A stretch of DNA of 64,000 bases from the sequence record OQ870555.1, one strand, 5' to 3'. A program made the translations under genes and the position numbers. The stretch is from Escherichia phage PECP14. The stretch's first letter is position 1, and each line of letters begins with the position of its first letter. The notes beneath the pieces are model-generated. The model did no database searches and was not told the DNA's origin. It was given only the letters and a program-made list of their open reading frames with translations. Of this stretch, positions 34,714-44,255 are shown in pieces.

Positions 34714-35391
34714 ATGACTAACTATCTTGTAAATGACTTTAAAAACTGGAAACCTTTGGAATATCTGTGGCTGTTTATAGCAGTCGCCTTTATTAGTTTA
34801 GCTAACTATAATGGTACAGCTCTAGATTGGGCTACTGCAATAACCAACGTGGTTTGTGTTATTCTGGTTGCAAAAGGACGTGTTTCCAACTATATTTGGG
34901 GCTTAGTTGGTGTTCTTACCTATGGTATTACAGCTTTAAACGCAGATCTTTATGGTAACGCTGCACTAAACCTGCTATACTACGTTCCTATGCAGTTTTA
35001 TGGAATGTACTTATGGCATAAAAATAAGCCAAGTAATCTGCCAGATGTTCCAACTAAGGTTCTGACTAAAGCCCAAGCTCTGCTGACTCTAGGGATTCTA
35101 GCAGTAGCCACGTTAGGGTATGGTAGTTTCTTAGCTACTACGGCTGATCCATTCCCAATGTTGGATGCATTTACTGCGGTAGGTAGTGTGATCGCTATGT
35201 GGCTTATGGTTAAGCAGTATGCCGAGCAGTGGCTGATCTGGATTGCTATTAACATTGGTACTGTATATATTTGGCTTGTAACTGCCCAGTCTACGGGTGC
35301 TTCTTATGCAATCCTAGCAATGTGGCTGGTGTTCTTAGGTAACTCTATTATGGGAGCCTATAAAGGCTACTTTGTAAGAGTTAACAAATAA
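34714..35391 (+). CDS. pnuC: PnuC-like nicotinamide riboside transporter
   Basis: polytopic membrane protein with PnuC-like W/Y-rich helices; directly follows NadR-like gene. Confidence 0.6.
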   Translation: MTNYLVNDFKNWKPLEYLWLFIAVAFISLANYNGTALDWATAITNVVCVILVAKGRVSNYIWGLVGVLTYGITALNADLYGNAALNLLYYVPMQFYGMYLWHKNKPSNLPDVPTKVLTKAQALLTLGILAVATLGYGSFLATTADPFPMLDAFTAVGSVIAMWLMVKQYAEQWLIWIAINIGTVYIWLVTAQSTGASYAILAMWLVFLGNSIMGAYKGYFVRVNK

Positions 35392-35497: not shown

Positions 35498-35794
35498 ATG
35501 AAACACATTGTACTTGCATTGACTCTAGTATCTACTTCTGTATTTGCTGCTCCACAACAGGAACTTTGTCAAGTTCAAGTTTGTAATAAGCTAGAACGAT
35601 TTACTCTAGACATTTGGTCGCACATTAAAGATAATATGGGTGAACAGTGTTTTGATATTGTTCTGCCAAAAGAACAAGCTGTTCCTGGGGCTGTTCTCAG
35701 CTCAGAATCACGTTGGTGGCAGGGTTCTTCTATCAACCCAACTAAGAAGTCAGTGACACGTATCAAACAAGTATATCAGTGCAATGTTCAGTAA
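35498..35794 (+). CDS. small secreted Cys-containing protein
   Basis: signal peptide MKHIVLALTLVSTSVFAAP. Confidence 0.45.
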   Translation: MKHIVLALTLVSTSVFAAPQQELCQVQVCNKLERFTLDIWSHIKDNMGEQCFDIVLPKEQAVPGAVLSSESRWWQGSSINPTKKSVTRIKQVYQCNVQ

Positions 35795-35802
35795 AATTTC
35801 AC

Positions 35803-35831
35803 TTGCTTAATGCCGAAATTTTCTGTATAAT
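35803..35831 (+). promoter_or_regulatory. early promoter cassette preceding tRNA-Ser
   Basis: TTGCTT-17-TATAAT. Confidence 0.55.
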
Positions 35832-35845
35832 ATATTCATAAATTC

Positions 35846-35939
35846 GGAAGATTAACCCTAAAGGTAAGGGAGCTGTTTGCTAAACAGCCAGTAGCTGTGG
35901 AGACACGGTGTGCCAGTTCGAATCTGGCATCTTCCTCCA
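35846..35939 (+). tRNA. tRNA-Ser(GCT)
   Basis: acceptor GGAAGAT/ATCTTCC; AC loop TTGCTAA; long variable arm; follows promoter. Confidence 0.7.
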
Positions 35940-35944
35940 AATTT

Positions 35945-36022
35945 GGTTCTCAAGCTCATTTGGTATGAGCCGTCGCCTCATAAGCGAAAGGTAGGTAGGT
36001 TCGAATCCTCCGGGAGCCACCA
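35945..36022 (+). tRNA. tRNA-Met/Ile2(CAT)
   Basis: D-stem GCTC/GAGC; AC loop CTCATAA; T-loop TTCGAAT; CCA encoded. Confidence 0.55.
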
Positions 36023-36039
36023 ATTAACTAGGAGACTAT

Positions 36040-36225
36040 ATGTCTAGATTCTATGAAATGAAGAAAGCATTAGAAGAATGTCGGTGTAAGGATTGTCATG
36101 GTGGTGGTAGGCAGGATGATGCAGAACCTGGGGATATTTTCTGTAGAGAATGGGAATGTCCTACATGTAAAGGTACTGGTATCAACCCTGAATATGCAAT
36201 TTGTCTAGACATTGAGCGAGGCTAA
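36040..36225 (+). CDS. small Cys-rich (zinc-ribbon-like) protein
   Basis: CRCKDC...CREWECPTC. Confidence 0.4.
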   Translation: MSRFYEMKKALEECRCKDCHGGGRQDDAEPGDIFCREWECPTCKGTGINPEYAICLDIERG

Positions 36226-36565
36226 GATGGATATTTTTACTACTCCGGCAATAAACCTTTTAGGTGTTGGCTTGTTCCAAGCTACGGTGTATCGTACTGA
36301 TGATTCTACTGATGTGGTAACGTTCATCGTACCTGAGTTCTTCCTAGAAAAGTTCTTTGAAGAGTTTGAGCAGTTCCGTGAAGAACACAATGCTCATTCC
36401 GATATGGAAGATCTAGCAGCTATGTTCCCTGTGGTTTACGGCTATATCTTTGAAGGTAATGGCCTAGATCTTAATAAATCTGAACTCGTTGAACTTAATT
36501 GGGGCATCAATTTTGAAGTTGGCTCTCCATTCCCTCGATATTTCCAGGGTTTAGAGATTCGCTAA
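36212..36565 (+). CDS. hypothetical protein
   Basis: ORF. Confidence 0.45.
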   Translation: MSEAKMDIFTTPAINLLGVGLFQATVYRTDDSTDVVTFIVPEFFLEKFFEEFEQFREEHNAHSDMEDLAAMFPVVYGYIFEGNGLDLNKSELVELNWGINFEVGSPFPRYFQGLEIR

Positions 36566-36573
36566 GATTACAT

Positions 36574-36650
36574 GGGGGTGTAATCGAATTGGCATAGGTA
36601 CTGGACTTAAAATTCAGGTTTTGTGGGTTCGAATCCCACCACCCCTACCA
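36574..36650 (+). tRNA. tRNA, anticodon TAA (isotype uncertain)
   Basis: acceptor GGGGGTG/CACCCCT; T-arm GTGGG-TTCGAAT-CCCAC; AC loop CTTAAAA with short variable loop. Confidence 0.5.
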
Positions 36651-36665
36651 AATTAAGGAAATAAA

Positions 36666-36788
36666 ATGAAAGCTATTAAGAAAGCACTACGTAAATTTAT
36701 GTACTGTCGTTTTCATAGCATCAAGACTTCAACTAATGGTACGACTTATGATCGCTATGATCCTAAGTTTGGCTTACATTCTAAATAA
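36666..36788 (+). CDS. small hypothetical protein
   Basis: 40-codon ORF with AAGGAAA SD after a tRNA. Confidence 0.3.
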   Translation: MKAIKKALRKFMYCRFHSIKTSTNGTTYDRYDPKFGLHSK

Positions 36789-36801
36789 CTGGAGATAATA
36801 A

Positions 36802-37008
36802 ATGGCTAATCCTGAAATTACTGCACAGCGCTTTATGCTGAAAGGTATTATTGCTGAAGCAGGCATGACAGAAGAAGTTGCAGATTTTCAAAAGCAGTTC
36901 CTAAATATTCTCACTCAAGCCAAAGAGCTAGGAGAGAAAGAACATGGCGCGGCTATTATGGCAATCACATTGGTTGGGCTTGATCTGGCAGAAGAATCAG
37001 GAGTTTAA
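36802..37008 (+). CDS. hypothetical protein
   Basis: ORF. Confidence 0.4.
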   Translation: MANPEITAQRFMLKGIIAEAGMTEEVADFQKQFLNILTQAKELGEKEHGAAIMAITLVGLDLAEESGV

Positions 37009-37038
37009 CTCCTCCAAGCAGAAATTTTAAAAATGTAC

Positions 37039-37068
37039 TTGCTTTTTACTTAAGATTTCTGCTATAAT
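37039..37068 (+). promoter_or_regulatory. early promoter cassette
   Basis: TTGCTT-18-TATAAT. Confidence 0.5.
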
Positions 37069-37098
37069 AGTTATATAAATTGATGAAGGAGTTAACGA

Positions 37099-37374
37099 AT
37101 GTCAAAACGTGTTACTGCAACTGGTGTTGAAAGTGCTGTTTGTAAATCCTGGGGTGGCTGGGAAGGTGAGATTGAATGGCTTTATTTCTACGATGTAGAA
37201 CTTCTGCCGGAAGTCAAAGCTAAATGTGTGGAAGCTGGTATGGCTCCTGATGCAAAGGCTGATATCGAAATCACCATGACTAAGCTAGAAGGTCGTGTAA
37301 TTACGCTCAATGATGATTATGAAGAAGTGTTCGAGCTTCCATTCAAACTGAGTGTCACCCCTAGCTTCGAGTAA
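37099..37374 (+). CDS. hypothetical protein
   Basis: promoter cassette + AAGGAG SD. Confidence 0.45.
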   Translation: MSKRVTATGVESAVCKSWGGWEGEIEWLYFYDVELLPEVKAKCVEAGMAPDAKADIEITMTKLEGRVITLNDDYEEVFELPFKLSVTPSFE

Positions 37375-37410
37375 CTGATATAGCACTGAGCAAGTTCTTT
37401 AAAATTTGAC

Positions 37411-37439
37411 TTGCTCAGTCCTTCAAAACTTGATATAAT
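37411..37439 (+). promoter_or_regulatory. early promoter preceding tRNA cluster
   Basis: TTGACTTGCTC / TATAAT. Confidence 0.5.
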
Positions 37440-37503
37440 AGTTATCTAATTTGGAAAACATATTTAAAAGTGTTTAAACTAGTATTTGAATATTTCTAAA
37501 TAT

Positions 37504-37594
37504 GTTGGATTAGTATCGTAGAGGTAGCGAAGCAGACTGTAAATCTGCCGACTCGGAAGGGTCTCGGGTGGTTCGACTCCATCATCCAACACCA
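37504..37594 (+). tRNA. tRNA-Tyr(GTA)
   Basis: AC arm GCAGA-CTGTAAA-TCTGC; long variable arm. Confidence 0.6.
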
Positions 37595-37601
37595 AATTTA
37601 A

Positions 37602-37678
37602 GTCCTGTTAGACAAACTGGTAAAGTCACTACCCTTTCAAGGTAGGATTTGCGGGTTCGATCCCCGCACAGGACGCCA
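37602..37678 (+). tRNA. tRNA-Glu(TTC)
   Basis: acceptor GTCCTGT/ACAGGAC; AC loop CTTTCAA; T-arm GCGGG-TTCGATC-CCCGC. Confidence 0.7.
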
Positions 37679-37687
37679 AATTCTGCA

Positions 37688-37763
37688 TTCCTAGAGTGTT
37701 ACTGGACAGCATGTCGGTCTCCAAAACCGTACGGTCTAGGTTCGAGTCCTAGTAGGTTTGCCA
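37688..37763 (+). tRNA. tRNA-like, anticodon CCA (Trp?), non-canonical acceptor
   Basis: AC arm TCGGT-CTCCAAA-ACCGT and T-arm CTAGG-TTCGAGT-CCTAG are good but acceptor stem does not pair. Confidence 0.35.
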
Positions 37764-37769
37764 ATATTT

Positions 37770-37844
37770 GCACCTTTAGCTGAGATGGATTAGCGCTTGC
37801 CTGAAGAGCTTGAGAGGTTGGATCGTTACCAACGGGGTGCACCA
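37770..37844 (+). tRNA. tRNA-Phe(GAA)
   Basis: acceptor GCACCTT/GGGGTGC; AC loop CTGAAGA; T-arm GTTGG-ATCGTTA-CCAAC (atypical loop). Confidence 0.5.
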
Positions 37845-37846
37845 AT

Positions 37847-38134
37847 TTGAAGGAGATGCTGATGCATCCTGAAAACTTCTTTATTTACTGTGCGGATAAG
37901 TCACTGAAACGCAGAATTAACAAAGTCTATCATTATCGTGCTAGTCAACAGCCTTATGTTTATGCTTTTGATGGAGAAACCATTCCACTAGAGCAGTTGG
38001 CTTGTGATTACATGGTATTGAAGAACTTTGATGAGACAAAGATCTCAAGCGTTCATAATCGACAGAACCCATTAACGTGGAAGTATAAGAAGAAAAAGAA
38101 AGGCATCATATTTCTGAAAAATGTAGTTGCTTAA
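37847..38134 (+). CDS. hypothetical protein
   Basis: ORF after tRNA cluster. Confidence 0.4.
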   Translation: MKEMLMHPENFFIYCADKSLKRRINKVYHYRASQQPYVYAFDGETIPLEQLACDYMVLKNFDETKISSVHNRQNPLTWKYKKKKKGIIFLKNVVA

Positions 38135-38155
38135 CCGCTTAAAGTTCTGTATAAT
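38127..38155 (+). promoter_or_regulatory. early promoter cassette
   Basis: TTGCTT-17-TATAAT. Confidence 0.5.
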
Positions 38156-38184
38156 TATTACATAAATTGAACTGGAGAAGCAAC

Positions 38185-38409
38185 ATGACAGAACAAGAAT
38201 TGAAAGAACGTAAGCTGGTAATGCTTCGCTTACTAAACATTTTCTCTGGTATGGATGGTGGTATTGACTTCGTTAATCTACGTTGCTTTGTAGAAGAAGC
38301 AGAAGGTGAGGCTATCACTAGGATTCTTAAACATATGGGTTTGTTATTAGATGTTGCTAATGTGGCTACTCAATATAAGCTCGAAGATTTACCGGAGCGT
38401 GTTAAATGA
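38185..38409 (+). CDS. hypothetical protein
   Basis: promoter cassette + GGAGA SD. Confidence 0.4.
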   Translation: MTEQELKERKLVMLRLLNIFSGMDGGIDFVNLRCFVEEAEGEAITRILKHMGLLLDVANVATQYKLEDLPERVK

Positions 38410-38597
38410 AAATGTTAGTTAAATTTAAGTGTTGTGGTTCTGAACATATTTTCACTCGTTATAGAGAGTTTAAGATGTGTGAGTGTGGTAAGTCAGGCTA
38501 TGATGCTGGAGATGGCTATTATGCTAGATCTATAGGACATTATAAAGATCTAGAGTTTACTAATCTCGAAAAGCAAGATAAATCGACCGTTGGCTGA
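38406..38597 (+). CDS. small Cys-containing protein
   Basis: ORF overlapping previous stop. Confidence 0.4.
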   Translation: MKMLVKFKCCGSEHIFTRYREFKMCECGKSGYDAGDGYYARSIGHYKDLEFTNLEKQDKSTVG

Positions 38598-38659
38598 ATG
38601 GCTTAGGCGGAGGCCTGCAAAACCTCCTTATGTGAGTTCGAATCTCATGCGGTCGTCCA
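38584..38659 (+). tRNA. tRNA-Cys(GCA)
   Basis: acceptor CGACCGT/GCGGTCG; AC loop CTGCAAA; T-loop TTCGAAT. Confidence 0.6.
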
Positions 38660-38666
38660 AATTTTA

Positions 38667-38749
38667 GGGTCGTTAGCCAAGCGGTTTGGCGGTGGACTGT
38701 TAATCCATGTCGAAAGACAACGTAGGTTCGAATCCTACACGGCCCGCCA
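38667..38749 (+). tRNA. tRNA-Asn(GTT), extended variable region
   Basis: acceptor GGGTCGT/ACGGCCC; AC arm GTGGA-CTGTTAA-TCCAT; T-arm GTAGG-TTCGAAT-CCTAC. Confidence 0.55.
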
Positions 38750-38852
38750 TATTCTGTGTAGAGTTAAGTAAACCGGTAGCCAACCAGCTATCATTACTGA
38801 TATCGAATTCAGTCACAGATACCATTTTTCATTAACAACTGAGGAAATAGAT

Positions 38853-39038
38853 ATGACAACTCGTGCAATTGCTCGACTAGAAGCTGATCGTGATAATCTG
38901 ATTAATAATATTAAGGTTCGTGGTAATATTATTAAGGCTCTGAAAGCTGAACTTCTTGAAGAACTTCAAGGTCAAGTAGAGCGTCGTGAAGCTCTAAAAG
39001 AGGTTGAGGAAGCTATCGAAAAACTCAAAACTGAGTAA
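38853..39038 (+). CDS. small coiled-coil protein
   Basis: ORF with GAGGAAA SD. Confidence 0.4.
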   Translation: MTTRAIARLEADRDNLINNIKVRGNIIKALKAELLEELQGQVERREALKEVEEAIEKLKTE

Positions 39039-39047
39039 ATAAATTAT

Positions 39048-39124
39048 GCGATCGGGGCTGGCTTGGTAATGGTACTCCCCTGTCACGGGAGAGAATGTGG
39101 GTTCGAATCCCATCGGTCGCGCCA
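39048..39124 (+). tRNA. tRNA-Asp(GTC)
   Basis: AC arm CTCCC-CTGTCAC-GGGAG; T-arm GTGGG-TTCGAAT-CCCAT. Confidence 0.7.
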
Positions 39125-39138
39125 ATTTAGGCTATAGT

Positions 39139-39330
39139 ATGACACGCAAATATTTAGTTATTAAAGGTGAACATGCAGGACAAACTGTATACTCATTGAA
39201 ATTTCATGATTATGGTTTAGCCTCAGATGATACTCGATATACTGGAATAGAGCATACAAGTGTAACATTAGACGAAACAGGTGATTATCCTAGTTTTACT
39301 ATTCCTAAAGATTTCTTAAAAGAGATTTAA
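39139..39330 (+). CDS. hypothetical protein
   Basis: start moved downstream of tRNA-Asp. Confidence 0.4.
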   Translation: MTRKYLVIKGEHAGQTVYSLKFHDYGLASDDTRYTGIEHTSVTLDETGDYPSFTIPKDFLKEI

Positions 39331-39331
39331 T

Positions 39332-39408
39332 GCTTCCATAGCTCAACTGGTTAGAGCTACCGCCTCTTAAGCGGAGGGTTGAAGGTTCAAGTCCTTCTGG
39401 GAGTACCA
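39332..39408 (+). tRNA. tRNA-Lys(CTT)
   Basis: D-stem GCTC/GAGC; AC loop CTCTTAA; T-arm GAAGG-TTCAAGT-CCTTC. Confidence 0.6.
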
Positions 39409-39611
39409 AACAAATAGAGTAAAGGCTACAGTAGGTGCACCCTTACGGACTGCTACACCGGACTCTATTCATTAACAAACATTCTAGCGTGGTGGAGAGG
39501 GGACACCAGCTTGCCGAGGGTAGAAGCTCGTTCGATTCGAGTGAAAGAATGGTTCTCGTAAATCCGCACAAGTGATAGCAGGTTCAAGTCCTGCCTAGAT
39601 TGACTTATTAT
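39409..39611 (+). other. degenerate tRNA-like elements
   Basis: two T-arm-like hairpins (CTCG-TTCGATT-CGAG; GCAGG-TTCAAGT-CCTGC) with no complete cloverleaf. Confidence 0.3.
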
Positions 39612-39685
39612 GCGTTCGTAGTTAAAAGGTATAATTTTTGGTTGCCAACCAGAAGTTGAGGGTTCGATTCCCTCCGACCGCACCA
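39612..39685 (+). tRNA. tRNA-Gly(GCC)
   Basis: AC arm TTTGG-TTGCCAA-CCAGA; T-arm GAGGG-TTCGATT-CCCTC. Confidence 0.6.
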
Positions 39686-39933
39686 AATTTAGGTTTCTGC
39701 TTCCTAGAGAACGAACTCCTAGATAAACAAGGTGATGAGTTTCCGGCCGGTTCTAGTCGCTGAAAATCCTCCCGACCAGGTAGGTGTAAGTAAACGAAAG
39801 TTTACTTATTAAGTAAGTCCGACACATCGGCGGGTGTGTTCTAGTACTTAAAGAAGGTCTAGCAAACTTTCTCGCTAGCATGAGTTGATAGCTCGGTGAC
39901 TTACCTAATAAGTAAATTTATTAAAAAATGTAG

Positions 39934-39962
39934 TTGCTATTTAGCTTAATTCTCTGTATAAT
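39934..39962 (+). promoter_or_regulatory. early promoter preceding tRNA-Pro/Met cluster
   Basis: TTGCTA-17-TATAAT. Confidence 0.5.
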
Positions 39963-39994
39963 ATATTTTATAAAGTGAGTTAACAAAGAATATT

Positions 39995-40072
39995 CTCCGT
40001 GTAGCTCAGTTTGGCCAGAGCGTTTCGTTTGGGGCGATAGGGTCGGGGGTTCAAATCCTCCCACGGAGACCA
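39995..40072 (+). tRNA. tRNA-Pro(TGG)
   Basis: acceptor CTCCGTG/CACGGAG; D-stem GCTC/GAGC; AC loop TTTGGGG. Confidence 0.7.
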
Positions 40073-40078
40073 AACAAT

Positions 40079-40156
40079 TGCGGGTTAGATCTCTGGTAGA
40101 GATCGCTAGTCTCATAAGCTAGAAAGAGGTAGGTTCGATTCCTGCACCCGCTTCCA
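40079..40156 (+). tRNA. tRNA-Met(CAT), possibly initiator (1:72 mismatch)
   Basis: D-stem GATC/GATC; AC arm CTAGT-CTCATAA-GCTAG; T-arm GTAGG-TTCGATT-CCTGC. Confidence 0.55.
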
Positions 40157-40177
40157 ATTCAATAGAAGGATTTCGAA

Positions 40178-40342
40178 ATGAAATTATTTCGCTTAAAAGT
40201 AAGTGATCTACGTTCTAGTAAAGATCGTAAGAAGTATCTATTAGCCCATTACGGTAAAGATAAAAATGAAGTAATGGCGGAATTTGGTATTAATCATCCT
40301 TACTTGAAAGTCTACTCTATTAAAGAAGTATACATGTACTAA
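40178..40342 (+). CDS. small hypothetical protein
   Basis: 54-codon ORF between tRNAs. Confidence 0.3.
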   Translation: MKLFRLKVSDLRSSKDRKKYLLAHYGKDKNEVMAEFGINHPYLKVYSIKEVYMY

Positions 40343-40344
40343 AT

Positions 40345-40423
40345 AGATCGCTAGCTCAATTGGTTTAGCAGCACCCGGCTTTTAACCGGAAGGTTCTGGG
40401 TTCGAGTCCCAGGCGGTCTACCA
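40345..40423 (+). tRNA. tRNA-Lys(TTT)
   Basis: acceptor AGATCGC/GCGGTCT; AC loop CTTTTAA; T-arm CTGGG-TTCGAGT-CCCAG. Confidence 0.65.
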
Positions 40424-40440
40424 ATTTAAAGGAATTTGTT

Positions 40441-40758
40441 ATGAATATTAACAAAGTTCTAGAAACAATATCAGAAATGTCTGGTAGAGCTGGAAAACGC
40501 TTTACTGAACTATGTATTAAAAATCAAAAAGTACCAGAACATCAATGTCATTATTGTCGAGATTGTGAACAATACCATGAAATGTGTATGGTTGAAGATT
40601 GGGTCTGGAATCAGATAAGAAAAGAACAACCCAAAGATATTGTTCTATGTTTTACTTGTATGGAACGACGTTTAGGACGTAAAATTACTCTTAAAGATCT
40701 TAAACATGTTCCCTGTAACGCTCCTTACTTCATTGGCTTTAGAATGGAGAGATTTTAA
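40441..40758 (+). CDS. Cys/His-rich protein, possible HNH-type nuclease
   Basis: CHYCRDCEQYHEMC...CFTCMERR. Confidence 0.35.
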   Translation: MNINKVLETISEMSGRAGKRFTELCIKNQKVPEHQCHYCRDCEQYHEMCMVEDWVWNQIRKEQPKDIVLCFTCMERRLGRKITLKDLKHVPCNAPYFIGFRMERF

Positions 40759-40891
40759 TGACTATCTGGTTTTACTTAATGAAGCAGAAAATAAAAGATC
40801 CCTATGTATTCTCTGCCGATTTTACAATAGGTATGTTTATAGCAGGTTTCTGTGAATTTGTAGTTGAAGCCTACATTATAGGAAGTCTTTT

Positions 40892-40965
40892 GCTCGGTTA
40901 GTTTAATGGGAGAACCCCGTCTTTACACGGCGGTTGCGATAGTTCGATTCTATCACCGAGTACCA
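40892..40965 (+). tRNA. tRNA-Val(TAC)
   Basis: AC arm CCGTC-TTTACAC-GGCGG; T-arm GATAG-TTCGATT-CTATC. Confidence 0.65.
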
Positions 40966-40990
40966 ATTAACTCAAAATAAGGAATTGCAA

Positions 40991-41344
40991 ATGCAATTAT
41001 CAAGCAAGGTTCAAGGCTATTTCGGACATGTAACAATGGAGTTCGCTATCTCTAAAGGTTGGGACTTCGAACAAGATTTAGCTGAGTTCTACAAAGATAT
41101 TGATCTGAACGTACCGTACATGGGACTCTCAACTGGTCAAGAGATCACAGAAGCCGACGTGTTCAAGGCAAGTCAAGGTGAGGTAACACCTAGTTTTGCC
41201 GAGTTCTGGTTAGGTATCACACTGAAAGAAGATGCACCGGATAGTGGAGTACTAATGACTAGTATGCACTCTGGAAGCTCTGATTACCTTTTCGTTAGTG
41301 ACGTTAAGGAAATACAAGAAATCTGCAAAAATGTACTTGCTTGA
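40991..41344 (+). CDS. hypothetical protein
   Basis: ORF after tRNA-Val. Confidence 0.45.
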   Translation: MQLSSKVQGYFGHVTMEFAISKGWDFEQDLAEFYKDIDLNVPYMGLSTGQEITEADVFKASQGEVTPSFAEFWLGITLKEDAPDSGVLMTSMHSGSSDYLFVSDVKEIQEICKNVLA

Positions 41345-41365
41345 TGCTTAATTTCTTGTTATAAT
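41337..41365 (+). promoter_or_regulatory. early promoter driving a non-coding stretch
   Basis: TTGCTT-17-TATAAT; next ORF starts 360 bp downstream. Confidence 0.5.
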
Positions 41366-41725
41366 ATTTATATAAATTGATGTGAAAATAGCTGCCTAGA
41401 TATTAGGTGTATGACGTCTACACTAGCAGAGCTACCGAAAAAAGAGATCCTCAGGATAAACGCCGTAGCAAAATTAGTCTGATATCCATCAATTTAGTTC
41501 ACTAAGGTATTAGCTCGACCTAGGACTGGCTGCCAAAAAGCACGGTTGCAATTAGACCCATAATGGCGGGGGATACTTTGCAAGAAGTTCTAGATTAGTC
41601 CACTAGATTCAGCGGCAACTGAATAGTGTATCGGGTTTGTGGAGAGCGGTTATCCTCTACTGGCTAATGTCTGAGGGTAATACGCACACCGAGCTAATAG
41701 CCTTAGTAAACTAGAAGGAATATCT
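41366..41725 (+). ncRNA. candidate promoter-driven non-coding RNA
   Basis: 360 bp with no ORF after the promoter at 41337-41365; GC-rich. Confidence 0.3.
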
Positions 41726-41989
41726 ATGTTTGATCTTAAAGATATGGCTAAGAAACTAATGTCGCAACGTTATCAACAAAGAACCCTCCATAAACGAGTT
41801 TCCGATATGAAGAAACGTTGCAATAATGCTAAGTATTATAATAGTCTTAATAAACTATCTGATATAGATCTTGCTAAAACTGAAGCAATATATAATCACT
41901 TAGTAGTAGAATCTGATATAGTGAATAAAGATATTGCTAGGCTAGAAGCTCAGATTGTAGCAACTGTTCTCGATATGTATAGAGAATAA
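41726..41989 (+). CDS. hypothetical protein
   Basis: ORF. Confidence 0.45.
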   Translation: MFDLKDMAKKLMSQRYQQRTLHKRVSDMKKRCNNAKYYNSLNKLSDIDLAKTEAIYNHLVVESDIVNKDIARLEAQIVATVLDMYRE

Positions 41990-41998
41990 ATAAATTTT

Positions 41999-42077
41999 GG
42001 GGAATGGGTCTGCATGGAGTGGACACCTCGCTTGCACCGAGGACATCAGAACGGTTCGATTCCGTTATTCTCCACCA
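41999..42077 (+). tRNA. tRNA-Ala(TGC)
   Basis: AC arm CCTCG-CTTGCAC-CGAGG; T-arm AACGG-TTCGATT-CCGTT. Confidence 0.6.
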
Positions 42078-42083
42078 AAATTC

Positions 42084-42159
42084 GGGGTCATAGGTTATTT
42101 GGTTAAACTTACTGCCTTGCAAGCAGTGGAACTCAGTTCAATTCTGAGTGACTCCACCA
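42084..42159 (+). tRNA. tRNA, anticodon TGC (second Ala-type)
   Basis: AC arm ACTGC-CTTGCAA-GCAGT; T-arm CTCAG-TTCAATT-CTGAG. Confidence 0.55.
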
Positions 42160-42178
42160 AACAAATTAAGGAAATAAT

Positions 42179-42397
42179 ATGGTATTCTTAGCAGCCTCTG
42201 TAGTTCTTGCAGCTTTAGCACTAGCTATCTATTTTAGAACTATTAAAGATTTAGCTAAAGAAAAGAAAACTTTCTTTACTGATTATTCTTGGGGCGCTCC
42301 ATATACCGTCCGCTTTATCAGCTTAGAAGCTATGCTGATAATGGTATTCAGTGGTATAGGTTCCGTTGTTACAGGGTTACTATTTATTTCTAACTAA
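42179..42397 (+). CDS. small membrane protein
   Basis: two hydrophobic helices. Confidence 0.45.
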   Translation: MVFLAASVVLAALALAIYFRTIKDLAKEKKTFFTDYSWGAPYTVRFISLEAMLIMVFSGIGSVVTGLLFISN

Positions 42398-42404
42398 ATA
42401 AAAT

Positions 42405-42485
42405 GGGGATGTGGCGAAATTGGCAGACGCGCTAGATTTAGGTTCTAGTCTTCGGGTGTGGGTTCGAGTCCCTCCATCCCTACCA
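42405..42485 (+). tRNA. tRNA-Leu(TAG)
   Basis: AC arm CTAGA-TTTAGGT-TCTAG; long variable arm. Confidence 0.6.
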
Positions 42486-42659
42486 AACATTGGATTAACT
42501 CATGATGAAAACTCCTATAACTGATATCTGGTTAGCTGTTAATACATTAACTAAAGAGTATGTGTTTATAGAGTATGGTCAGAGGTATGACCAAAAGATG
42601 TATAATCTCATACTTCCAGTATCCGCTAATGAAGTTTATGATTTAATCCTGAGATCTAC

Positions 42660-42750
42660 GGAAGAGCAAATCGATTAGGTGACGAAAACCACTTGGAAAG
42701 TGGCTGACTGGTAAAACGGCTTGAGAGTTCGAATCTCTCTTCTTCCGCCA
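42660..42750 (+). tRNA. tRNA-Ser(GGA)
   Basis: AC loop TTGGAAA; long variable arm; T-arm GAGAG-TTCGAAT-CTCTC. Confidence 0.55.
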
Positions 42751-42757
42751 AACAACT

Positions 42758-42847
42758 GGAAGGTAGGACATAGTGGTATGTAACAGGTCTTGAAAACCTG
42801 CCCGCTGTAGCGATATGGTGATGGTTCGACTCCATTACCTTCCTCCA
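42758..42847 (+). tRNA. tRNA-Ser(TGA)
   Basis: AC arm CAGGT-CTTGAAA-ACCTG; long variable arm; T-loop TTCGACT. Confidence 0.65.
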
Positions 42848-42865
42848 ACTAATAAGGAAAACCTT

Positions 42866-43069
42866 ATGAAACACATTGTTAAGTATACCGAAAGCGAACG
42901 TGGCTGGGGTGGTGAAATCTGGTATCGTCCATTTGACACCGAGGCCGAAGCCTTGATGGAAGTTAATGATGTAAATAAAGATCTACCTAAAGATCATGTG
43001 CCAACATACTACATCCAAGCTGAGTATATTGGTGTTAAGGATAAGGTTCCCGAAGGTTACAAGTTTTAA
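42866..43069 (+). CDS. hypothetical protein
   Basis: start after tRNA-Ser with AAGGAAA SD. Confidence 0.45.
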   Translation: MKHIVKYTESERGWGGEIWYRPFDTEAEALMEVNDVNKDLPKDHVPTYYIQAEYIGVKDKVPEGYKF

Positions 43070-43388
43070 ATAATTCTTGAAGTATGCCGGAATCGGTAGA
43101 CGGGGCTTCCTAAAGGGCGTAAGGGGAACATCCACTCCTCATAAGATACCCGAAAACGAGGCTGAGATAAATGGTCTATCTCGTGAAGGTTCAAGTCCTT
43201 CTGCTTCTTGATACATCAATGGCTCAAAGAGTAACGGTGCACCTTTCTAGAGAATTTCCTGGGCGAGAATCCAGGTGTAATCAACTAGTTGTTAGTGTGA
43301 TGAGTTTCGGAGAGCCGCCACAATTGAAGTCTTTAGAATGGGTATCGCCCTTTAGCCCCTCCGAAAGGGATAACTAGAGATTTCAATT

Positions 43389-43465
43389 GTGGCTATATCA
43401 TAATTGGTTAATGATCCTGATTGTGAATCAGGCCTATGTGGATTCGAATTCCACTAGCCACCCCA
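43389..43465 (+). tRNA. tRNA-His(GTG)
   Basis: AC arm CCTGA-TTGTGAA-TCAGG; T-arm GTGGA-TTCGAAT-TCCAC. Confidence 0.7.
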
Positions 43466-43471
43466 AATATT

Positions 43472-43546
43472 GCGTCCTTATTTCAATGGAAAGAATGTAA
43501 AGCTACGAACTTTACGATCGGGGTTCGATTCCCTGAGGATGCACCA
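43472..43546 (+). tRNA. tRNA-Arg(ACG)
   Basis: AC arm TAAAG-CTACGAA-CTTTA; T-loop TTCGATT. Confidence 0.65.
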
Positions 43547-43570
43547 ATTAACTTATATAGGAACTAAAAT

Positions 43571-43771
43571 ATGGCTGATTTCTGCAAAGAATGCTCTATC
43601 GATATGTGGGGCAAAGATACTGGTGATCTTTCTGGTCTGATTACAGAAGCCGAAGTTAAAGAAGGCTATGGTGCTGTTGTAATCTGTGAAGGTTGTGGTA
43701 TTATTCGTGTTGATCATAATGGTAAACGTCTAGAAGAACCAGATCCAATTGCCACGGTTCCTGTAGAATAA
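43571..43771 (+). CDS. small Cys-rich protein
   Basis: CKEC...CEGCG. Confidence 0.4.
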   Translation: MADFCKECSIDMWGKDTGDLSGLITEAEVKEGYGAVVICEGCGIIRVDHNGKRLEEPDPIATVPVE

Positions 43772-43778
43772 AAATTAT

Positions 43779-43854
43779 TGGGATGTAGATCAATTGGCAG
43801 ATCGTCGGCCTCTGACTCCGAAGGTTCCACGTTCGATCCGTGGCATCCCAGCCA
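43779..43854 (+). tRNA. tRNA-Gln(CTG)
   Basis: AC loop CTCTGAC; T-arm CCACG-TTCGATC-CGTGG. Confidence 0.65.
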
Positions 43855-43860
43855 AATACT

Positions 43861-43936
43861 TGGAGAGTAGTGTAACGGTTAGCACAACGGCCTTTGACTC
43901 CGTTAATGGTAGGTTCGATTCCTCCTTCTCCAGCCA
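43861..43936 (+). tRNA. tRNA-Gln(TTG)
   Basis: AC loop CTTTGAC; T-loop TTCGATT. Confidence 0.6.
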
Positions 43937-43942
43937 ATTTAT

Positions 43943-44017
43943 GCGTGATTAGTTCAGTGGCTAGAATAACTGGCTTCCAACCAGTAGACACGAGTTCGAC
44001 TCTCGTATCCCGCACCA
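43943..44017 (+). tRNA. tRNA-Gly(TCC)
   Basis: AC arm ACTGG-CTTCCAA-CCAGT; T-arm ACGAG-TTCGACT-CTCGT. Confidence 0.65.
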
Positions 44018-44033
44018 AATATAAGGAAACGTT

Positions 44034-44255
44034 ATGCACGTTTTTGAGTTTCGTAATAAAAACCCTAATAGACGAGTTTTAATTATTGGTGAAACATATC
44101 GAGCTTATGAGCAAGAAGATGGTTCGGTTTTATTAAATGATGAAAAGCAAGGCTATAGTTTTCATCCAGAAGAAACATATGAGGAATTTCGTACTAAGTT
44201 TCTTTTACCAGACTGGCTAGCAATAGCTGAGCAAAGAGAACCCGAAGATGGCTGA
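44034..44255 (+). CDS. hypothetical protein
   Basis: ORF. Confidence 0.45.
   Translation: MHVFEFRNKNPNRRVLIIGETYRAYEQEDGSVLLNDEKQGYSFHPEETYEEFRTKFLLPDWLAIAEQREPEDG

What the first reader, a model, noticed from the sequence alone, without database searches (positions are those of the whole stretch)
39409..39611. Degenerate tRNA-like elements and non-canonical tRNAs
39409-39611 holds two T-arm-like hairpins without a complete cloverleaf. The CCA-anticodon candidate at 37688-37763 has good anticodon and T arms but no pairing acceptor stem. The TAA-anticodon tRNA (36574-36650) has a short variable loop unlike type II Leu tRNAs, and the GTT tRNA (38667-38749) has an unusually long variable region. 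These could be pseudo-tRNAs, recombination scars, or atypical functional tRNAs.
Basis: seen in the sequence. Interest (0 to 1): 0.5.

Follow-up and report, generated by a model that had tools for sequence, protein, structure and literature searches.

The report
Phage tRNA mimic with interrupted anticodon loop
The flagged spacer in this T5-like phage's tRNA cluster holds the already-annotated but functionally unexplained "RNA2" gene, which is a complete tRNA-Arg-like cloverleaf with a 48-base structured insert in its anticodon loop, plus a separate small hairpin RNA shared by three phage families; the other flagged tRNAs are ordinary working phage tRNAs.

Summary
The window is a T5-like (Epseptimavirus) phage tRNA cluster.

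**Two independent modules in 39409-39611**
- A 55-57-nt hairpin at 39414-39468.
- The orthologue of T5/phage 5 gene rna2 at 39480-39604, annotated in GenBank as a "tRNA-like RNA with unknown functions".

**The two T-arm-like hairpins are real.** Chance expectation is 0.004 per 203 nt. "No complete cloverleaf" is wrong, though.
- RNA2 has an 8-bp acceptor, a D arm, a 5-bp anticodon stem, a GAUA variable loop and a true T arm.
- A 48-nt insert sits between anticodon-loop positions 32 and 33.
- The first "T arm" lies inside that insert.
- Nine pairs carry compensatory changes.
- With the insert deleted in silico, ARAGORN calls tRNA-Arg(CCG).
- T5 RNA1 (43076-43220) has the same design.

**RNA2 is probably not a decoder.** It lacks an encoded CCA, has C37, and CGG is the rarest Arg codon. 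I read it as a processed, non-decoding tRNA mimic. A decoy role is speculative.

**The three flagged tRNAs** (Leu-UAA, Trp-CCA, Asn-GUU) are 100 % identical to phage 5 genes that GenBank notes describe as convertible to amber suppressors.

**Verdict:** a known gene of unknown function. New here: the architecture, and the hairpin module seen in Demerecviridae, Ackermannviridae and Schitoviridae.

The parts
39414..39468 (+). Module 1: a 55-57-nt hairpin RNA unit. It has a 7-bp terminal stem ATAGAGU/ACUCUAU (8 bp counting A39413-U39469), an inner hairpin GUAGG-UGCACC-CUUAC, and the motif GCUACA twice. It starts 5 nt after the CCA of tRNA-Lys(CUU).
   Evidence: Absent from T5, L022 and L038, where RNA2 follows the upstream gene directly, so it is independent of RNA2. 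Found in 346 phage records: T5-like phages, about 237 Ackermannviridae, and a Schitoviridae phage where it fills the 72-nt gap between tRNA-Gln and tRNA-Met. The terminal stem co-varies, with 3 pairs changed on both sides among 6 sequences. G.U pairs fit only the tRNA-sense strand. No Rfam hit, no E. coli match.
39480..39604 (+). Module 2: RNA2 gene, the orthologue of T5 rna2 / phage 5 RNA2. A tRNA-Arg(CCG)-type cloverleaf with an interrupted anticodon loop.
   Evidence: 89.6 % identical to T5 rna2 and 92.0 % to phage 5 RNA2 over 125 nt. Annotations. Structure.
39480..39487 (+). Acceptor stem, 5' strand CAUUCUAG. It pairs with 39595-39602.
   Evidence: Invariant in 24 distinct sequences. 8/8 paired in 20 of them; the window copy has one U.U.
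39490..39508 (+). D arm UGGUG-GAGAGGGGA-CACCA. The loop holds the GG of a D loop.
   Evidence: 5/5 paired in all 24 variants. Three different pairs are compensated in three lineages: window, SIY1lw and L038.
39509..39513 (+). Anticodon stem, 5' strand GCUUG. It pairs with 39569-39573 (CAAGU). C39514 is loop position 32.
   Evidence: The long-range helix was found by RNAalifold. My1 and DU_PP_V carry GCCAU/GUGGU, so three pairs are compensated.
39515..39562 (+). 48-nt insertion in the anticodon loop, between positions 32 and 33. Layout: conserved CGAGGG, a purine run, the T-arm-like hairpin, a GG-containing linker, then CUCGUAAA.
   Evidence: 48 nt in 21 variants, 50 nt in 1 and 53 nt in 2. Deleting it in silico gives an MFE cloverleaf and a default ARAGORN call of tRNA-Arg(ccg) in 5 of 6 lineages. 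The proposed helix GGGY/RUCC (alignment A3 columns 39-42 with 88-91) has one compensated pair.
39526..39542 (+). T-arm-like hairpin 1 (GCUCG-UUCGAUU-CGAGU), inside the insertion.
   Evidence: Two stem versions, GCUCG/CGAGU and UACGG/CCGUA, both fully paired, so four of five pairs are compensated. A possible distant relative, L047, lacks this hairpin.
39563..39568 (+). Residual anticodon loop UCCGCA: U33, anticodon CCG, C37, A38.
   Evidence: Invariant in all 24 variants. With C39514 it forms a 7-nt loop once the insert is removed.
39569..39577 (+). Anticodon stem 3' strand CAAGU (39569-39573) and variable loop GAUA (39574-39577).
   Evidence: GAUA is invariant.
39578..39594 (+). True T arm GCAGG-UUCAAGU-CCUGC, stacked directly on the acceptor 3' strand.
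   Evidence: 11 stem/loop variants. Compensated versions include GGAGG/CCUCC, GUAGG/CCUAC and ACAGG/CCUGU.
39595..39604 (+). Acceptor 3' strand CUAGAUUG, then AC(U). There is no encoded CCA.
   Evidence: The tail is ACA, ACU or ACC in 22 of 24 variants. Only SIY1lw (G-CCA) and the fusion variant L017 carry CCA. 28 of the 29 tRNA genes listed encode CCA.
36574..36650 (+). tRNA-Leu(UAA): class I shape, 5-nt variable loop, A73.
   Evidence: Rfam 57.4 bits, cloverleaf. 100 % identical to phage 5 tRNAL2, annotated as an 'effective amber suppressor' after an anticodon change.
37687..37763 (+). tRNA-Trp(CCA), with U.U mismatches at 2:71 and 3:70.
   Evidence: Rfam 36.3 bits, cloverleaf. 100 % identical to phage 5 tRNAW, which carries an amber-suppressor note.
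38667..38749 (+). tRNA-Asn(GUU), with a 13-nt variable arm.
   Evidence: Rfam 59.0 bits, cloverleaf. 100 % identical to phage 5 tRNAN, which carries an amber-suppressor note.
43076..43220 (+). RNA1: a sister gene of the same design. A type II, Leu-like cloverleaf with a 40-41-nt insert at the 5' edge of the anticodon loop; the insert hairpin has an invariant ACAUCCAC loop.
   Evidence: 82-88 % identical to T5 and phage 5 RNA1. ARAGORN intron mode calls it in the window, T5, phage 5 and L022, with 0 calls in 320 kb of shuffles. Acceptor, anticodon-stem and insert stems co-vary, but the residual anticodon is not conserved.

Best explanation
The 203-nt spacer holds two separate non-coding RNA units that sit in tRNA-sized slots of the phage's polycistronic tRNA array.

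The main one (39480-39604) is the orthologue of T5 gene rna2. It is a tRNA-Arg(CCG)-derived cloverleaf. Its anticodon loop carries a 48-nt structured insertion between positions 32 and 33. The insertion turns the anticodon arm into a long irregular rod. It probably pairs with U33-C34-C35 and is capped by a T-arm-like hairpin.

INFERRED: because the acceptor/T-arm coaxial helix, D arm and elbow-forming loops are intact, RNase P and the 3'-trimming enzymes should cut it out like its tRNA neighbours, and it should accumulate as a stable RNA of about 125 nt.

INFERRED: because the anticodon is buried, position 37 is C, and CCA is not encoded, it is not a decoder. It is a tRNA mimic.

SPECULATIVE, about 0.25 on its own: it acts as a decoy or ligand for proteins that bind or cut tRNA anticodon arms. 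Candidates are host tRNA-targeting defence nucleases and the phage's own RNA-repair set.

The second unit (39414-39468) is an independent hairpin RNA of unknown role. It travels with tRNA arrays between phage families.

The three flagged tRNAs are functional phage tRNAs with T5-typical oddities.
For: Identity: 89.6-92 % identical to annotated rna2/RNA2.

Structure:
- A long-range anticodon stem was found independently by RNAalifold and by ARAGORN intron mode.
- For the explicit model, 97.1 % of cells pair, against 28-40 % when partners are slid.
- 9 pairs change on both sides, against 0-1 in the slid controls, and 0 of 500 shuffles reach the observed values.
- Every arm is paired in 24 distinct sequences from 42 loci, with independent compensations in the D stem (3 lineages), the anticodon stem (My1 lineage), T arm 2 (3 or more) and the insert hairpin.
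- Insert-less versions give an MFE cloverleaf and a default ARAGORN tRNA-Arg(ccg) call in 5 of 6.

tRNA-slot position:
- RNA2 starts 6 nt after the CCA of tRNA-Lys in L022 and L038.
- tRNA-Gly begins 7-9 nt after it in the window.
- No promoter or terminator is predicted inside.

Selection: identity to T5, phage 5, SIY1lw and My1 is 90, 92, 84 and 73 %. That is within the tRNA range and above the neighbouring small ORFs at 61-79 %.

Non-decoder:
- No encoded CCA in 22 of 24 variants, whereas 28 of 29 tRNA genes have it.
- CGG is 2.0 % of Arg codons.
- The sister gene RNA1 has the same design but no conserved anticodon.

Context for a tRNA-conflict role:
- T5 tRNAs neutralise PARIS and retron Eco7 (PMC11464382, PMC11555353).
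- The window encodes cREC, SIR2 and HAD 'Swiss-army-knife RNA repair' proteins and a YqeY-like protein (PMC9503650).
Against: - No expression, end-mapping or binding data were available. I found no paper that describes RNA2, so 'stable RNA' rests on GenBank annotation and on inference from RNase P substrate rules.
- The MFE of the whole RNA is no better than shuffles, z = 0.00. The case is comparative, not thermodynamic.
- The acceptor stem shows no compensatory change. Its three 3'-strand variants give a G.U, a U.U (this window) and an A.C.
- Lineage diversity is small, about six lineages, so several 'events' are single lineages.
- The interior fold of the insert, apart from the T-arm-like hairpin, is uncertain. 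Two mutually exclusive helices are both compatible.
- T5 mutants deleted across the tRNA region are viable (PMC11464382), so any role is conditional.
- Nothing links RNA2 directly to any defence system.
Confidence: 0.6

Rival explanations
1. RNA2 is an intron-containing tRNA-Arg(CCG) gene. The 48-nt insert is excised and the halves rejoined, for example by a nuclease plus the phage end-healing enzymes and host RtcB. The product is a 77-nt decoder for the rare CGG codon.
For: - Removing the insert restores a textbook cloverleaf that ARAGORN accepts as tRNA-Arg(ccg).
- U33 plus CCG is invariant in all 24 variants.
- The insert probably pairs with the anticodon, as introns do in pre-tRNAs.
- The cluster has no other tRNA-Arg(CCG).
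- The SIY1lw variant encodes G-CCA.
- The phage carries predicted RNA end-healing genes: cREC, SIR2 and HAD_SAK (PMC9503650).
Against: - No splicing endonuclease or RNA ligase is annotated in the close relative across the ~50 kb checked, window ~1-49900.
- From general knowledge, enterobacteria have no tRNA-splicing endonuclease, and the only known bacterial tRNA introns are group I.
- 48 nt is far too short for a group I intron, and there is no Rfam intron hit.
- The insert sits at 32/33, not 37/38. The flanking structure is a 4x3 internal loop, a 4-bp helix and a 5-nt bulge, which is not a bulge-helix-bulge motif.
- C37 is very unusual for a decoder.
- No CCA in 22 of 24 variants.
- CGG is only 2 % of Arg codons.
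- The sister gene RNA1 has no conserved anticodon.
Confidence: 0.08
2. RNA2 is a functionless relic: a tRNA-Arg gene inactivated by a partial internal duplication. It is still transcribed and trimmed only because it lies in the array, and it is conserved by hitch-hiking or shortage of time.
For: - The insert looks like a degenerate second copy of the 3' half of the same tRNA. It has a CCG/GCG/UCG/GCU loop, a T arm, and AGAAUG that can pair with the 5' CAUUCU.
- ARAGORN at relaxed thresholds, and at default in SIY1lw, calls a tRNA-Arg from the 5' half plus that copy.
- The acceptor carries uncompensated mismatches.
- tRNA-region deletions are viable (PMC11464382).
- No function is known after decades (note).
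Against: - Compensatory changes in four different stems across lineages.
- UCCGCA, GAUA and CGAGGG are invariant.
- Conservation equals that of real tRNAs and exceeds that of flanking ORFs and intergenic DNA.
- It is retained across two subfamilies, Markadamsvirinae and Mccorquodalevirinae, while the flanking gene content is reshuffled.
- An independent second gene (RNA1) has the same design.
Confidence: 0.17
3. RNA2 and the hairpin are purely cis-acting processing 'punctuation'. They are structured spacers that give RNase P and exonucleases defined stop and cut sites, so neighbouring tRNAs and small mRNAs mature correctly. The released RNA has no trans-acting role.
For: - Both units sit in tRNA-sized slots with tRNA-like spacing.
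- The array mixes tRNAs with small ORFs whose mRNAs must be separated.
- The acceptor/T-arm helix is the best-kept part.
Against: - Punctuation would need only the acceptor/T-arm minihelix. It does not explain the invariant UCCGCA, the covarying D arm, anticodon stem and insert hairpin, or the invariant ACAUCCAC loop of RNA1.
- In some phages tRNA-Lys and tRNA-Gly flank RNA2, but in T5 they do not, so it is not tied to particular neighbours.
Confidence: 0.12
4. The region encodes a small protein, as some GenBank records annotate ('hypothetical protein').
For: - Stop-free runs of 48-66 codons exist.
- Several records annotate a CDS here.
- ORFs are listed at 39435-39575 (+) and 39465-39686 (-).
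Against: - Lineages differ by 1-, 2- and 5-nt indels inside the region.
- Substitutions are paired across stems, including G.U intermediates, rather than following codon positions.
- The curated T5 and phage 5 records call it an RNA.
- No start codon with a Shine-Dalgarno context is conserved.
Confidence: 0.02

Closest known systems
T5 rna2 / Salmonella phage 5 RNA2 (GenBank AY692264, AJ604531; Ksenzenko laboratory annotation 'tRNA-like RNA with unknown functions')
   Same: The same gene: 89.6-92 % identity over all 125 nt, the same place in the tRNA cluster, the same strand.
   Different: In this phage it is flanked by tRNA-Lys(CUU) and tRNA-Gly(GCC) and preceded by the 57-nt hairpin module. 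T5 has an ORF upstream and RNAIV downstream. The window copy has a compensated D-stem pair and one U.U in the acceptor. The records give no structure or function.
T5 / phage 5 RNA1 (also annotated as 'tRNA-like RNA'; window 43076-43220)
   Same: The same design: a complete cloverleaf with a 40-41-nt structured insert at the 5' edge of the anticodon loop, in the same array.
   Different: Type II (Leu-like) body with a long variable arm. The insert has no T-loop; it has a hairpin with an invariant ACAUCCAC loop. The residual anticodon is not conserved. There is no sequence similarity to RNA2.
Phage T4 small stable RNAs, species 1 and 2 (rnaC, rnaD)
   Same: Small stable RNAs of unknown function at the end of a phage tRNA cluster, next to tRNA-Arg. 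rnaC has a canonical T-arm-like hairpin (CCGGG-UUCGAAU-CCCGG) next to its 3' end.
   Different: No meaningful sequence similarity; the best match is 10 nt. rnaC and rnaD did not resolve into a clean cloverleaf with an insert.
Intron-containing tRNA genes: archaeal/eukaryal bulge-helix-bulge introns and bacterial group I introns in anticodon loops
   Same: An intervening sequence in the anticodon loop whose removal restores a canonical tRNA. The insert probably pairs with anticodon nucleotides.
   Different: 48 nt rules out group I. The position is 32/33 rather than 37/38 and there is no canonical bulge-helix-bulge. No splicing endonuclease or ligase was found. There is no evidence of excision.
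Phage tRNAs used against tRNA-targeting defences: T5 tRNA-Lys against PARIS AriB and T5 tRNA-Tyr against retron Eco7 PtuAB (PMC11464382, PMC11555353)
   Same: The same gene cluster and the same phage family. The logic matches: an RNA of tRNA shape whose anticodon arm differs from the host's so that a nuclease cannot act on it.
   Different: Those are working decoders that replace cleaved host tRNAs. RNA2 cannot decode as transcribed, so it could act only as a decoy or ligand. That has not been tested.

Membership tests
T5 rna2 gene family (tRNA-like RNA of T5-like phages) | Sequence homology over the full annotated 125-nt gene | tested here: met
   Window 39480-39604 is 89.6 % identical to T5 rna2 and 92.0 % to phage 5 RNA2, positions 1-124 of 125. 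454 phage records match.
T5 rna2 gene family (tRNA-like RNA of T5-like phages) | Location in the early tRNA cluster, same strand, between the tRNA-Asp block and the P13a promoter/tRNA-Pro | tested here: met
   Gene order. A promoter-like site at 39934-39962 matches the P13a position.
T5 rna2 gene family (tRNA-like RNA of T5-like phages) | Accumulates as a discrete stable RNA in infected cells | not testable with these tools
   Needs Northern blot or RNA-seq. I found no paper that reports it.
Canonical tRNA (Rfam RF00005) | Covariance-model score at or above 29 bits | tested here: not met
   No tRNA hit in 39409-39611 at the gathering threshold or at E<=10. ARAGORN default finds none either.
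Canonical tRNA (Rfam RF00005) | Acceptor stem, D arm, anticodon stem, and a T arm with a UUCRANY loop, all in cloverleaf order | tested here: met
   All four helices are present and paired in 24 variants. 9 pairs have changes on both sides.
Canonical tRNA (Rfam RF00005) | Seven-nucleotide anticodon loop | tested here: not met
   The loop is 55 nt in the window: 7 plus a 48-nt insert.
Canonical tRNA (Rfam RF00005) | Encoded 3' CCA, as in the other tRNA genes of this cluster | tested here: not met
   The window tail is G-ACU, and 22 of 24 variants lack CCA. 28 of the 29 tRNA genes listed encode CCA.
Intron-containing tRNA | Removing the intervening sequence restores a canonical tRNA | tested here: met
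   MFE cloverleaf for insert-less T5 and phage 5. ARAGORN default calls tRNA-Arg(ccg) in 5 of 6 lineages.
Intron-containing tRNA | Group I intron core, the only intron type known in bacterial tRNA genes | tested here: not met
   The insert is 48-53 nt. No intron family hit at E<=10.
Intron-containing tRNA | Bulge-helix-bulge motif at the junctions, usually at position 37/38 | tested here: not met
   The insert lies between 32 and 33. The best model gives a 4x3 internal loop, a 4-bp helix and a 5-nt bulge. The interior fold is uncertain.
Intron-containing tRNA | A splicing endonuclease and an RNA ligase are available | tested here: inconclusive
   None is annotated in the relative 'ende' over the ~50 kb checked, window ~1-49900. 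Predicted end-healing genes are present: cREC, SIR2 and HAD_SAK_2. The small hypothetical ORFs were not examined.
tmRNA | A tRNA-like domain with a G3:U70 alanine identity pair, plus a tag reading frame | tested here: not met
   The ARAGORN tRNA/tmRNA search of the window finds no tmRNA. The 3:70 pair is U-A, U.G or U.U. The only Rfam tmRNA hit is a weak chance match elsewhere.
T4 species 1/2 stable RNAs (rnaC/rnaD) | Sequence or structural homology to rnaC or rnaD | tested here: not met
   The best blastn-short match is 10 nt, E = 0.02. The folds differ. They share only the setting in a tRNA cluster and a T-arm-like hairpin.

The most novel reading that the evidence does not exclude
RNA2, and perhaps RNA1, are true split-by-insert tRNA genes that are cut and resealed during infection. 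A nuclease would cut them, and the phage's predicted NAD-dependent end-healing enzymes (cREC, SIR2, HAD) plus a ligase such as host RtcB would rejoin them. That would be the first short, non-group-I tRNA intron, or a programmed tRNA cut-and-repair cycle, in a bacterial virus.
Probability: 0.07. Interest if true: 0.9.

Novelty: already known. Interest (0 to 1): 0.42.

Why it matters
Phage tRNA clusters have recently been shown to be weapons against host tRNA-cleaving defences such as PARIS and retron Eco7. The conserved non-tRNA RNAs inside these clusters (T5 RNA1-3, T4 species 1 and 2) have had no explanation for decades.

Two T5-family RNAs turn out to be intact tRNA bodies whose anticodon loops are deliberately occupied by conserved structured inserts. 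They sit in a phage that also carries predicted RNA end-healing enzymes. That gives a concrete, testable idea: they may be uncleavable tRNA mimics, decoys, or substrates of a cut-and-repair pathway.

There are also practical points:
- Standard tRNA finders and Rfam miss these genes.
- Many deposited genomes annotate false 'hypothetical proteins' over them.
- A 55-nt hairpin RNA shared by three phage families is unannotated and absent from Rfam.

Tried and rejected
1. Rfam at E<=10 over 35500-45500 gave nothing in the spacer.
2. Literature searches for T5 RNA2, stable RNAs or tRNA-like RNAs found no paper describing them. Recent T5/BF23 papers discuss only tRNAs. The T4 genome review (PMC150520) is not held.
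3. I first read RNA2 as two fused half-tRNAs, with the 5' end pairing to the internal AGAAUG. I rejected this as the conserved fold because My1 lacks that internal strand, while the terminal acceptor and the long-range anticodon stem are conserved or compensated. I keep it only as a likely evolutionary origin (partial duplication).
4. I searched for an insert-less homologue or a bacterial ancestor with four pattern scans: viral, metagenome and genome collections. None was found; all non-phage hits are chance. My first pattern was mis-designed and matched nothing.
5. Insert-less RNA2 and the hairpin have no match in E. coli genomes.
6. L047, an AT-rich 109-kb viral contig, shares a 42-nt 3' module with a different acceptor and a short insert. 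It is a single truncated locus, neither ARAGORN nor Rfam calls it, and it is left unresolved.
7. To extend the 'insert' design to Kuttervirus: ARAGORN intron-mode calls there have poor acceptor stems and are not convincing.
8. T4 rnaC/rnaD as homologues: rejected.
9. Thermodynamic support: the z-score is 0.00 for RNA2 and -1.46 for the hairpin, so it is uninformative.
10. The interior fold of the insert: CGAG/CUCG and GGGY/RUCC are mutually exclusive and both compatible, so it is not settled.
11. I did not build a covariance model. The MAFFT alignment puts the insert hairpin of My1 and SIY1lw one column out of register, so that arm was scored by a direct per-arm script instead.
Full report
**What the window is.** ARAGORN finds 28 tRNA genes on the plus strand between 30382 and 45022. 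Rfam adds a tRNA-Phe at 37770-37841. blastn places the region in T5-like phages (Demerecviridae): 422-454 records match, mostly Salmonella and Escherichia phages. The closest relatives are Epseptimavirus such as Salmonella phage ende, which is 100 % identical over the flagged 203 nt.

**Checking the observation.**
- The two T-arm-like hairpins are at 39526-39542 (GCUCG-UUCGAUU-CGAGU) and 39578-39594 (GCAGG-UUCAAGU-CCUGC).
- A scan for 5-bp stems closing a TTCRANN loop finds 29 on the plus strand of the 64-kb window. 26 are in tRNA genes. Only three lie outside: these two and one at 43185.
- None lie on the minus strand. Shuffles give 1.3 per 64 kb, or 0.004 per 203 nt.
- ARAGORN and Rfam, at the gathering threshold and at E<=10, report no tRNA or other family in 39409-39611.

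**What is already on record.** The T5 st0 record AY692264 and the phage 5 tRNA-region record AJ604531 annotate a misc_RNA 'rna2'/'RNA2' under the 3' two-thirds of the spacer. The same records list RNA1 and RNA3 (also 'tRNA-like') and RNAI, RNAIII, RNAIV and RNA2H ('stable RNA with unknown functions'). Mapping these onto the window:

| Feature | Window position | Identity |
|---|---|---|
| RNA2 | 39480-39604 | 89.6 % to T5, 92.0 % to phage 5 |
| RNA3 | 38752-38824 | 95.9 % to phage 5 |
| RNA1 | 43076-43220 | 82-88 % |
| RNA2H | partial | partial |
| RNAIV | partial | partial |

**The three flagged tRNAs.** The Leu(UAA), Trp(CCA) and Asn(GUU) genes are 100 % identical to phage 5 tRNAL2, tRNAW and tRNAN. 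The GenBank notes for those genes say that replacing the anticodon with CUA turns them into amber suppressors, 'effective' for Leu. This is evidence from annotation, not from a paper I could read.
- Their Rfam scores are 57.4, 36.3 and 59.0 bits.
- Leu(UAA) is a class I shaped tRNA with a 5-nt variable loop and A73.
- Asn has a 13-nt variable arm.
- The Trp acceptor pairs at 5 of 7 positions, with U.U at 2:71 and 3:70, once the start is set at 37687 rather than 37688.

These are atypical but functional T5-family tRNAs, not pseudogenes.

**The spacer has two modules.** In L022 and L038, RNA2 starts 6 nt after the CCA of tRNA-Lys(CUU). T5 and phage 5 have different sequence upstream. The window, My1 and others carry a ~57-nt element in between. 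So 39414-39468 and 39480-39604 are independent units.

**RNA2 is a complete cloverleaf with an interrupted anticodon loop.**
- RNAalifold on 14 sequences (alignment A3) found a long-range helix GCUUG (39509-39513) with CAAGU (39569-39573). In the My1 lineage it is GCCAU/GUGGU.
- ARAGORN in intron mode independently drew T5 RNA2 as 'tRNA-Arg(ccg) with a 48-nt intron at 33/34'.
- The full model is:
  - an 8-bp acceptor CAUUCUAG/CUAGAUUG (one U.U in the window);
  - a 5-bp D stem with a GG-containing loop;
  - a 5-bp anticodon stem;
  - loop nucleotide 32, then a 48-nt insert (39515-39562), then UCCGCA (U33, CCG, C37, A38);
  - a GAUA variable loop;
  - a canonical T arm stacked on the acceptor.
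- Counting pairs for this model on A3: 97.1 % of cells pair, against 28-40 % with slid partners. 9 pairs change on both sides, against 0-1. No shuffle of 500 reaches the observed values.
- A per-arm tabulation over 24 distinct sequences from 42 loci shows all arms paired almost everywhere, with independent compensations:
  - D stem: UGGUG/CACCA, UGGCU/AGCCA, CGGUU/AACCG.
  - T arm: GGAGG/CCUCC, GUAGG/CCUAC, ACAGG/CCUGU.
  - Insert hairpin: GCUCG/CGAGU versus UACGG/CCGUA.
- Deleting the insert in silico gives a textbook MFE cloverleaf for T5 and phage 5. It also gives a default-threshold ARAGORN call of tRNA-Arg(ccg) in 5 of 6 lineages.

**Limits of the structural case.**
- The whole RNA is not unusually stable, z = 0.00.
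- The acceptor shows only one-sided changes.
- Only about six lineages exist.
- The interior fold of the insert is unsettled. GGGY/RUCC would bury U33-C34-C35 and has one compensated pair. It competes with CGAG/CUCG.

**A sister gene of the same design.** ARAGORN intron mode calls RNA1 (window 43078-43209) as a tRNA with a 40-41-nt insert in the anticodon loop. It does so in the window, T5, phage 5 and L022, and makes no calls in 320 kb of shuffled sequence.
- RNA1 has a type II, Leu-like body.
- Its acceptor and anticodon stems and its insert stems co-vary.
- The insert hairpin loop ACAUCCAC is invariant.
- The residual anticodon is not conserved: UAA in T5, different in phage 5 and in the window.

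**Is RNA2 a decoder?** Probably not as transcribed.

Against decoding:
- The anticodon is inside a 55-nt loop.
- Position 37 is C.
- 22 of 24 variants lack an encoded CCA, whereas 28 of the 29 tRNA genes listed have one.
- CGG is the rarest Arg codon in 35 long ORFs of the window: 10 of 493, or 2.0 %.

Against splicing:
- 48 nt cannot be a group I intron.
- The position (32/33) and the flanking loops are not a bulge-helix-bulge.
- The close relative 'ende' annotates no RNA ligase or splicing endonuclease across the ~50 kb checked, window ~1-49900.

For splicing:
- The clean restoration of a tRNA.
- The invariant U33-CCG.
- The encoded G-CCA of SIY1lw.

**Origin.** The insert resembles a degenerate second copy of the 3' half of the same tRNA. 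It has an NCG/GCU loop, a T arm, and AGAAUG complementary to the 5' end. ARAGORN calls a tRNA-Arg from the 5' half plus this copy, at default in SIY1lw and at relaxed thresholds in the window and T5. A partial internal duplication is therefore the likely origin (inference). The duplicate acceptor strand is lost in My1, so that alternative fold is not the conserved one.

**Selection and distribution.**
- RNA2 is 90, 92, 84 and 73 % identical to T5, phage 5, SIY1lw and My1. That is within the range of the real tRNAs and above the neighbouring small ORFs at 61-79 %.
- It is kept while its neighbours change: ORF and RNAIV in T5; tRNA-Lys and tRNA-Gly here and in My1.
- No insert-less version and no bacterial or host relative was found in viral, metagenome, genome or E. 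coli collections.
- One AT-rich viral contig (L047) shares a 42-nt 3' module but could not be resolved.

**The hairpin module (39414-39468).**
- It occurs in 346 phage records: about 110 T5-like phages, about 237 Ackermannviridae (Kuttervirus, Taipeivirus, Limestonevirus and others), and an N4-like Schitoviridae phage.
- It always lies inside a tRNA array, 5-9 nt after a CCA end. In the Schitoviridae phage it fills a 72-nt gap between tRNA-Gln and tRNA-Met.
- Its 7-bp terminal stem co-varies: ATAGAGT/ACTCTAT, ACAGAGT/ACTCTGT, CAGAGTG/CACTCTG, TAGAGTG/CACTCTA, AAAGAGT/ACTCTTT. The core is nearly invariant.
- G.U pairs fit only the tRNA-sense strand.
- It is not in Rfam, has no E. coli match, and is never annotated as an RNA. 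Its function is unknown.

**Context.**
- No promoter or terminator is predicted inside the spacer. The next plus-strand promoter-like site, at 39934-39962, matches T5 P13a. So both modules should be co-transcribed with tRNA-Lys and tRNA-Gly (inference).
- The window also encodes:
  - a cREC 'cyclic-phosphate processing' protein (28056-28373);
  - a YqeY-like protein (29068-29517);
  - SIR2 (12972-13823);
  - a HAD 'Swiss-army-knife RNA repair' protein (12153-12692);
  - NMN adenylyltransferase and PnuC.
- PMC9503650 predicts that exactly this sirtuin-plus-HAD set in SP15-type (T5-like) phages heals cleaved RNA ends.
- T5 tRNAs are proven counter-measures to PARIS and retron Eco7, and tRNA-region deletions are viable.

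**Conclusion.** The flagged element is a known, annotated gene family of unknown function. I place high confidence, about 0.9, on its identity and on the cloverleaf-plus-insert architecture. I place moderate confidence, about 0.6, on it being a processed, non-decoding stable tRNA mimic. I place low confidence, about 0.25, on a decoy or ligand role in the conflict over tRNA integrity. Rivals are a functionless duplication relic (0.17), pure processing punctuation (0.12), a spliced tRNA-Arg(CCG) (0.08) and a small protein (0.02).

Noticed in passing
window 43076-43220: RNA1, the orthologue of T5 RNA1, has the same design as RNA2. It is a type II, Leu-like cloverleaf with a 40-41-nt insert at the 5' edge of the anticodon loop. 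The insert hairpin loop ACAUCCAC is invariant, the stems co-vary, and the residual anticodon is not conserved.
   Followed up: partly
window 38752-38824: RNA3 orthologue, 95.9 % identical to phage 5. It is a 73-nt tRNA-like gene directly after tRNA-Asn, ending in ACCA. It has a 6/7-paired acceptor, an 8-nt T loop (UAUCGAAU) and a non-7-nt anticodon loop. Neither ARAGORN (even at relaxed thresholds) nor Rfam calls it.
   Followed up: partly
window 42660-42750: A tRNA-Ser(GGA) gene that ARAGORN misses and Rfam scores only as a weak tRNA-Sec-like hit (23.6 bits). It aligns end to end with T5/phage 5 tRNAS2 and ends in GCCA. With tRNA-Phe this brings the cluster to 30 tRNA genes.
   Followed up: yes
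window 37770-37844: tRNA-Phe(GAA) with a non-canonical T loop (AUCGUUA, no UUC) and two U.U pairs in the anticodon stem. ARAGORN misses it at default settings; Rfam gives 33.4 bits. It is 93 % identical to phage 5 tRNAF, which has a different T arm.
   Followed up: partly
window 12153-13823 (-), 28056-28373 (+), 29068-29517 (+), 33606-35391 (+): A predicted RNA-repair and NAD toolkit around the tRNA cluster: HAD_SAK_2 'Swiss-army-knife RNA repair', SIR2, a cREC cyclic-phosphate processing domain, a YqeY-like protein (PHROG name 'tRNA amidotransferase'), NadR-like NMN adenylyltransferase and PnuC. It matches the sirtuin-centred RNA end-healing system predicted for SP15-type phages in PMC9503650. 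No RNA ligase was seen.
   Followed up: partly
window 44508-44576: A near-perfect hairpin with a 22-bp stem directly after tRNA-Thr, -34.6 kcal/mol, z = -8.2. It produced spurious microRNA-family hits in Rfam on both strands. Its role is unknown; it could be a terminator, a processing site or another stable RNA.
   Followed up: partly
window 39686-39930: A 245-nt non-coding stretch between tRNA-Gly(GCC) and the P13a-like promoter. Only 39818-39869 resembles T5 RNAIV (77-79 % over 52 nt). There are no convincing ORFs, so it may hold a diverged RNAIV-type stable RNA.
   Followed up: no
L047 1049-1150 (IMGVR_UViG_3300032322_002195, 109-kb AT-rich viral contig): Shares a 42-nt near-identical module with RNA2 (CUUCGUAAUUCCGCAUGGGUGAUAGCAGGUUCGAAUCCUGUC). 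It has a different, fully paired acceptor (UAGUCAG/CUGACUA), a different D stem, and a 28-nt insert without the T-arm-like hairpin. The flanking promoters look Bacteroidota-like. It may be a distant relative in an unrelated phage.
   Followed up: partly
L005 2386-2641 (Kuttervirus STML-13-1), also L041 and L045: Between tRNA-Asn and tRNA-Tyr, Kuttervirus phages carry three consecutive small units with paired ends: GAAGUAG...CUACUUC, the 57-nt hairpin, and UCUACCGC...GCGGUAGA followed by CCA. This suggests further unannotated tRNA-slot RNAs in Ackermannviridae.
   Followed up: no
L004 1501-1630 (SIY1lw) and L017 (SHSML-45): The SIY1lw RNA2 variant ends in G-CCA like a real tRNA. In SHSML-45 the RNA2 3' end is fused to the spacer that normally precedes tRNA-fMet (GACCAAACAAUUGCGGG). 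This shows recombination between tRNA-slot boundaries.
   Followed up: no
phage records under window 39409-39611 (e.g. H37, H38, H41, H48, H95): Several deposited T5-like genomes annotate a 'hypothetical protein' CDS over RNA2 or the hairpin. These are probably false gene calls over structured RNA genes.
   Followed up: partly
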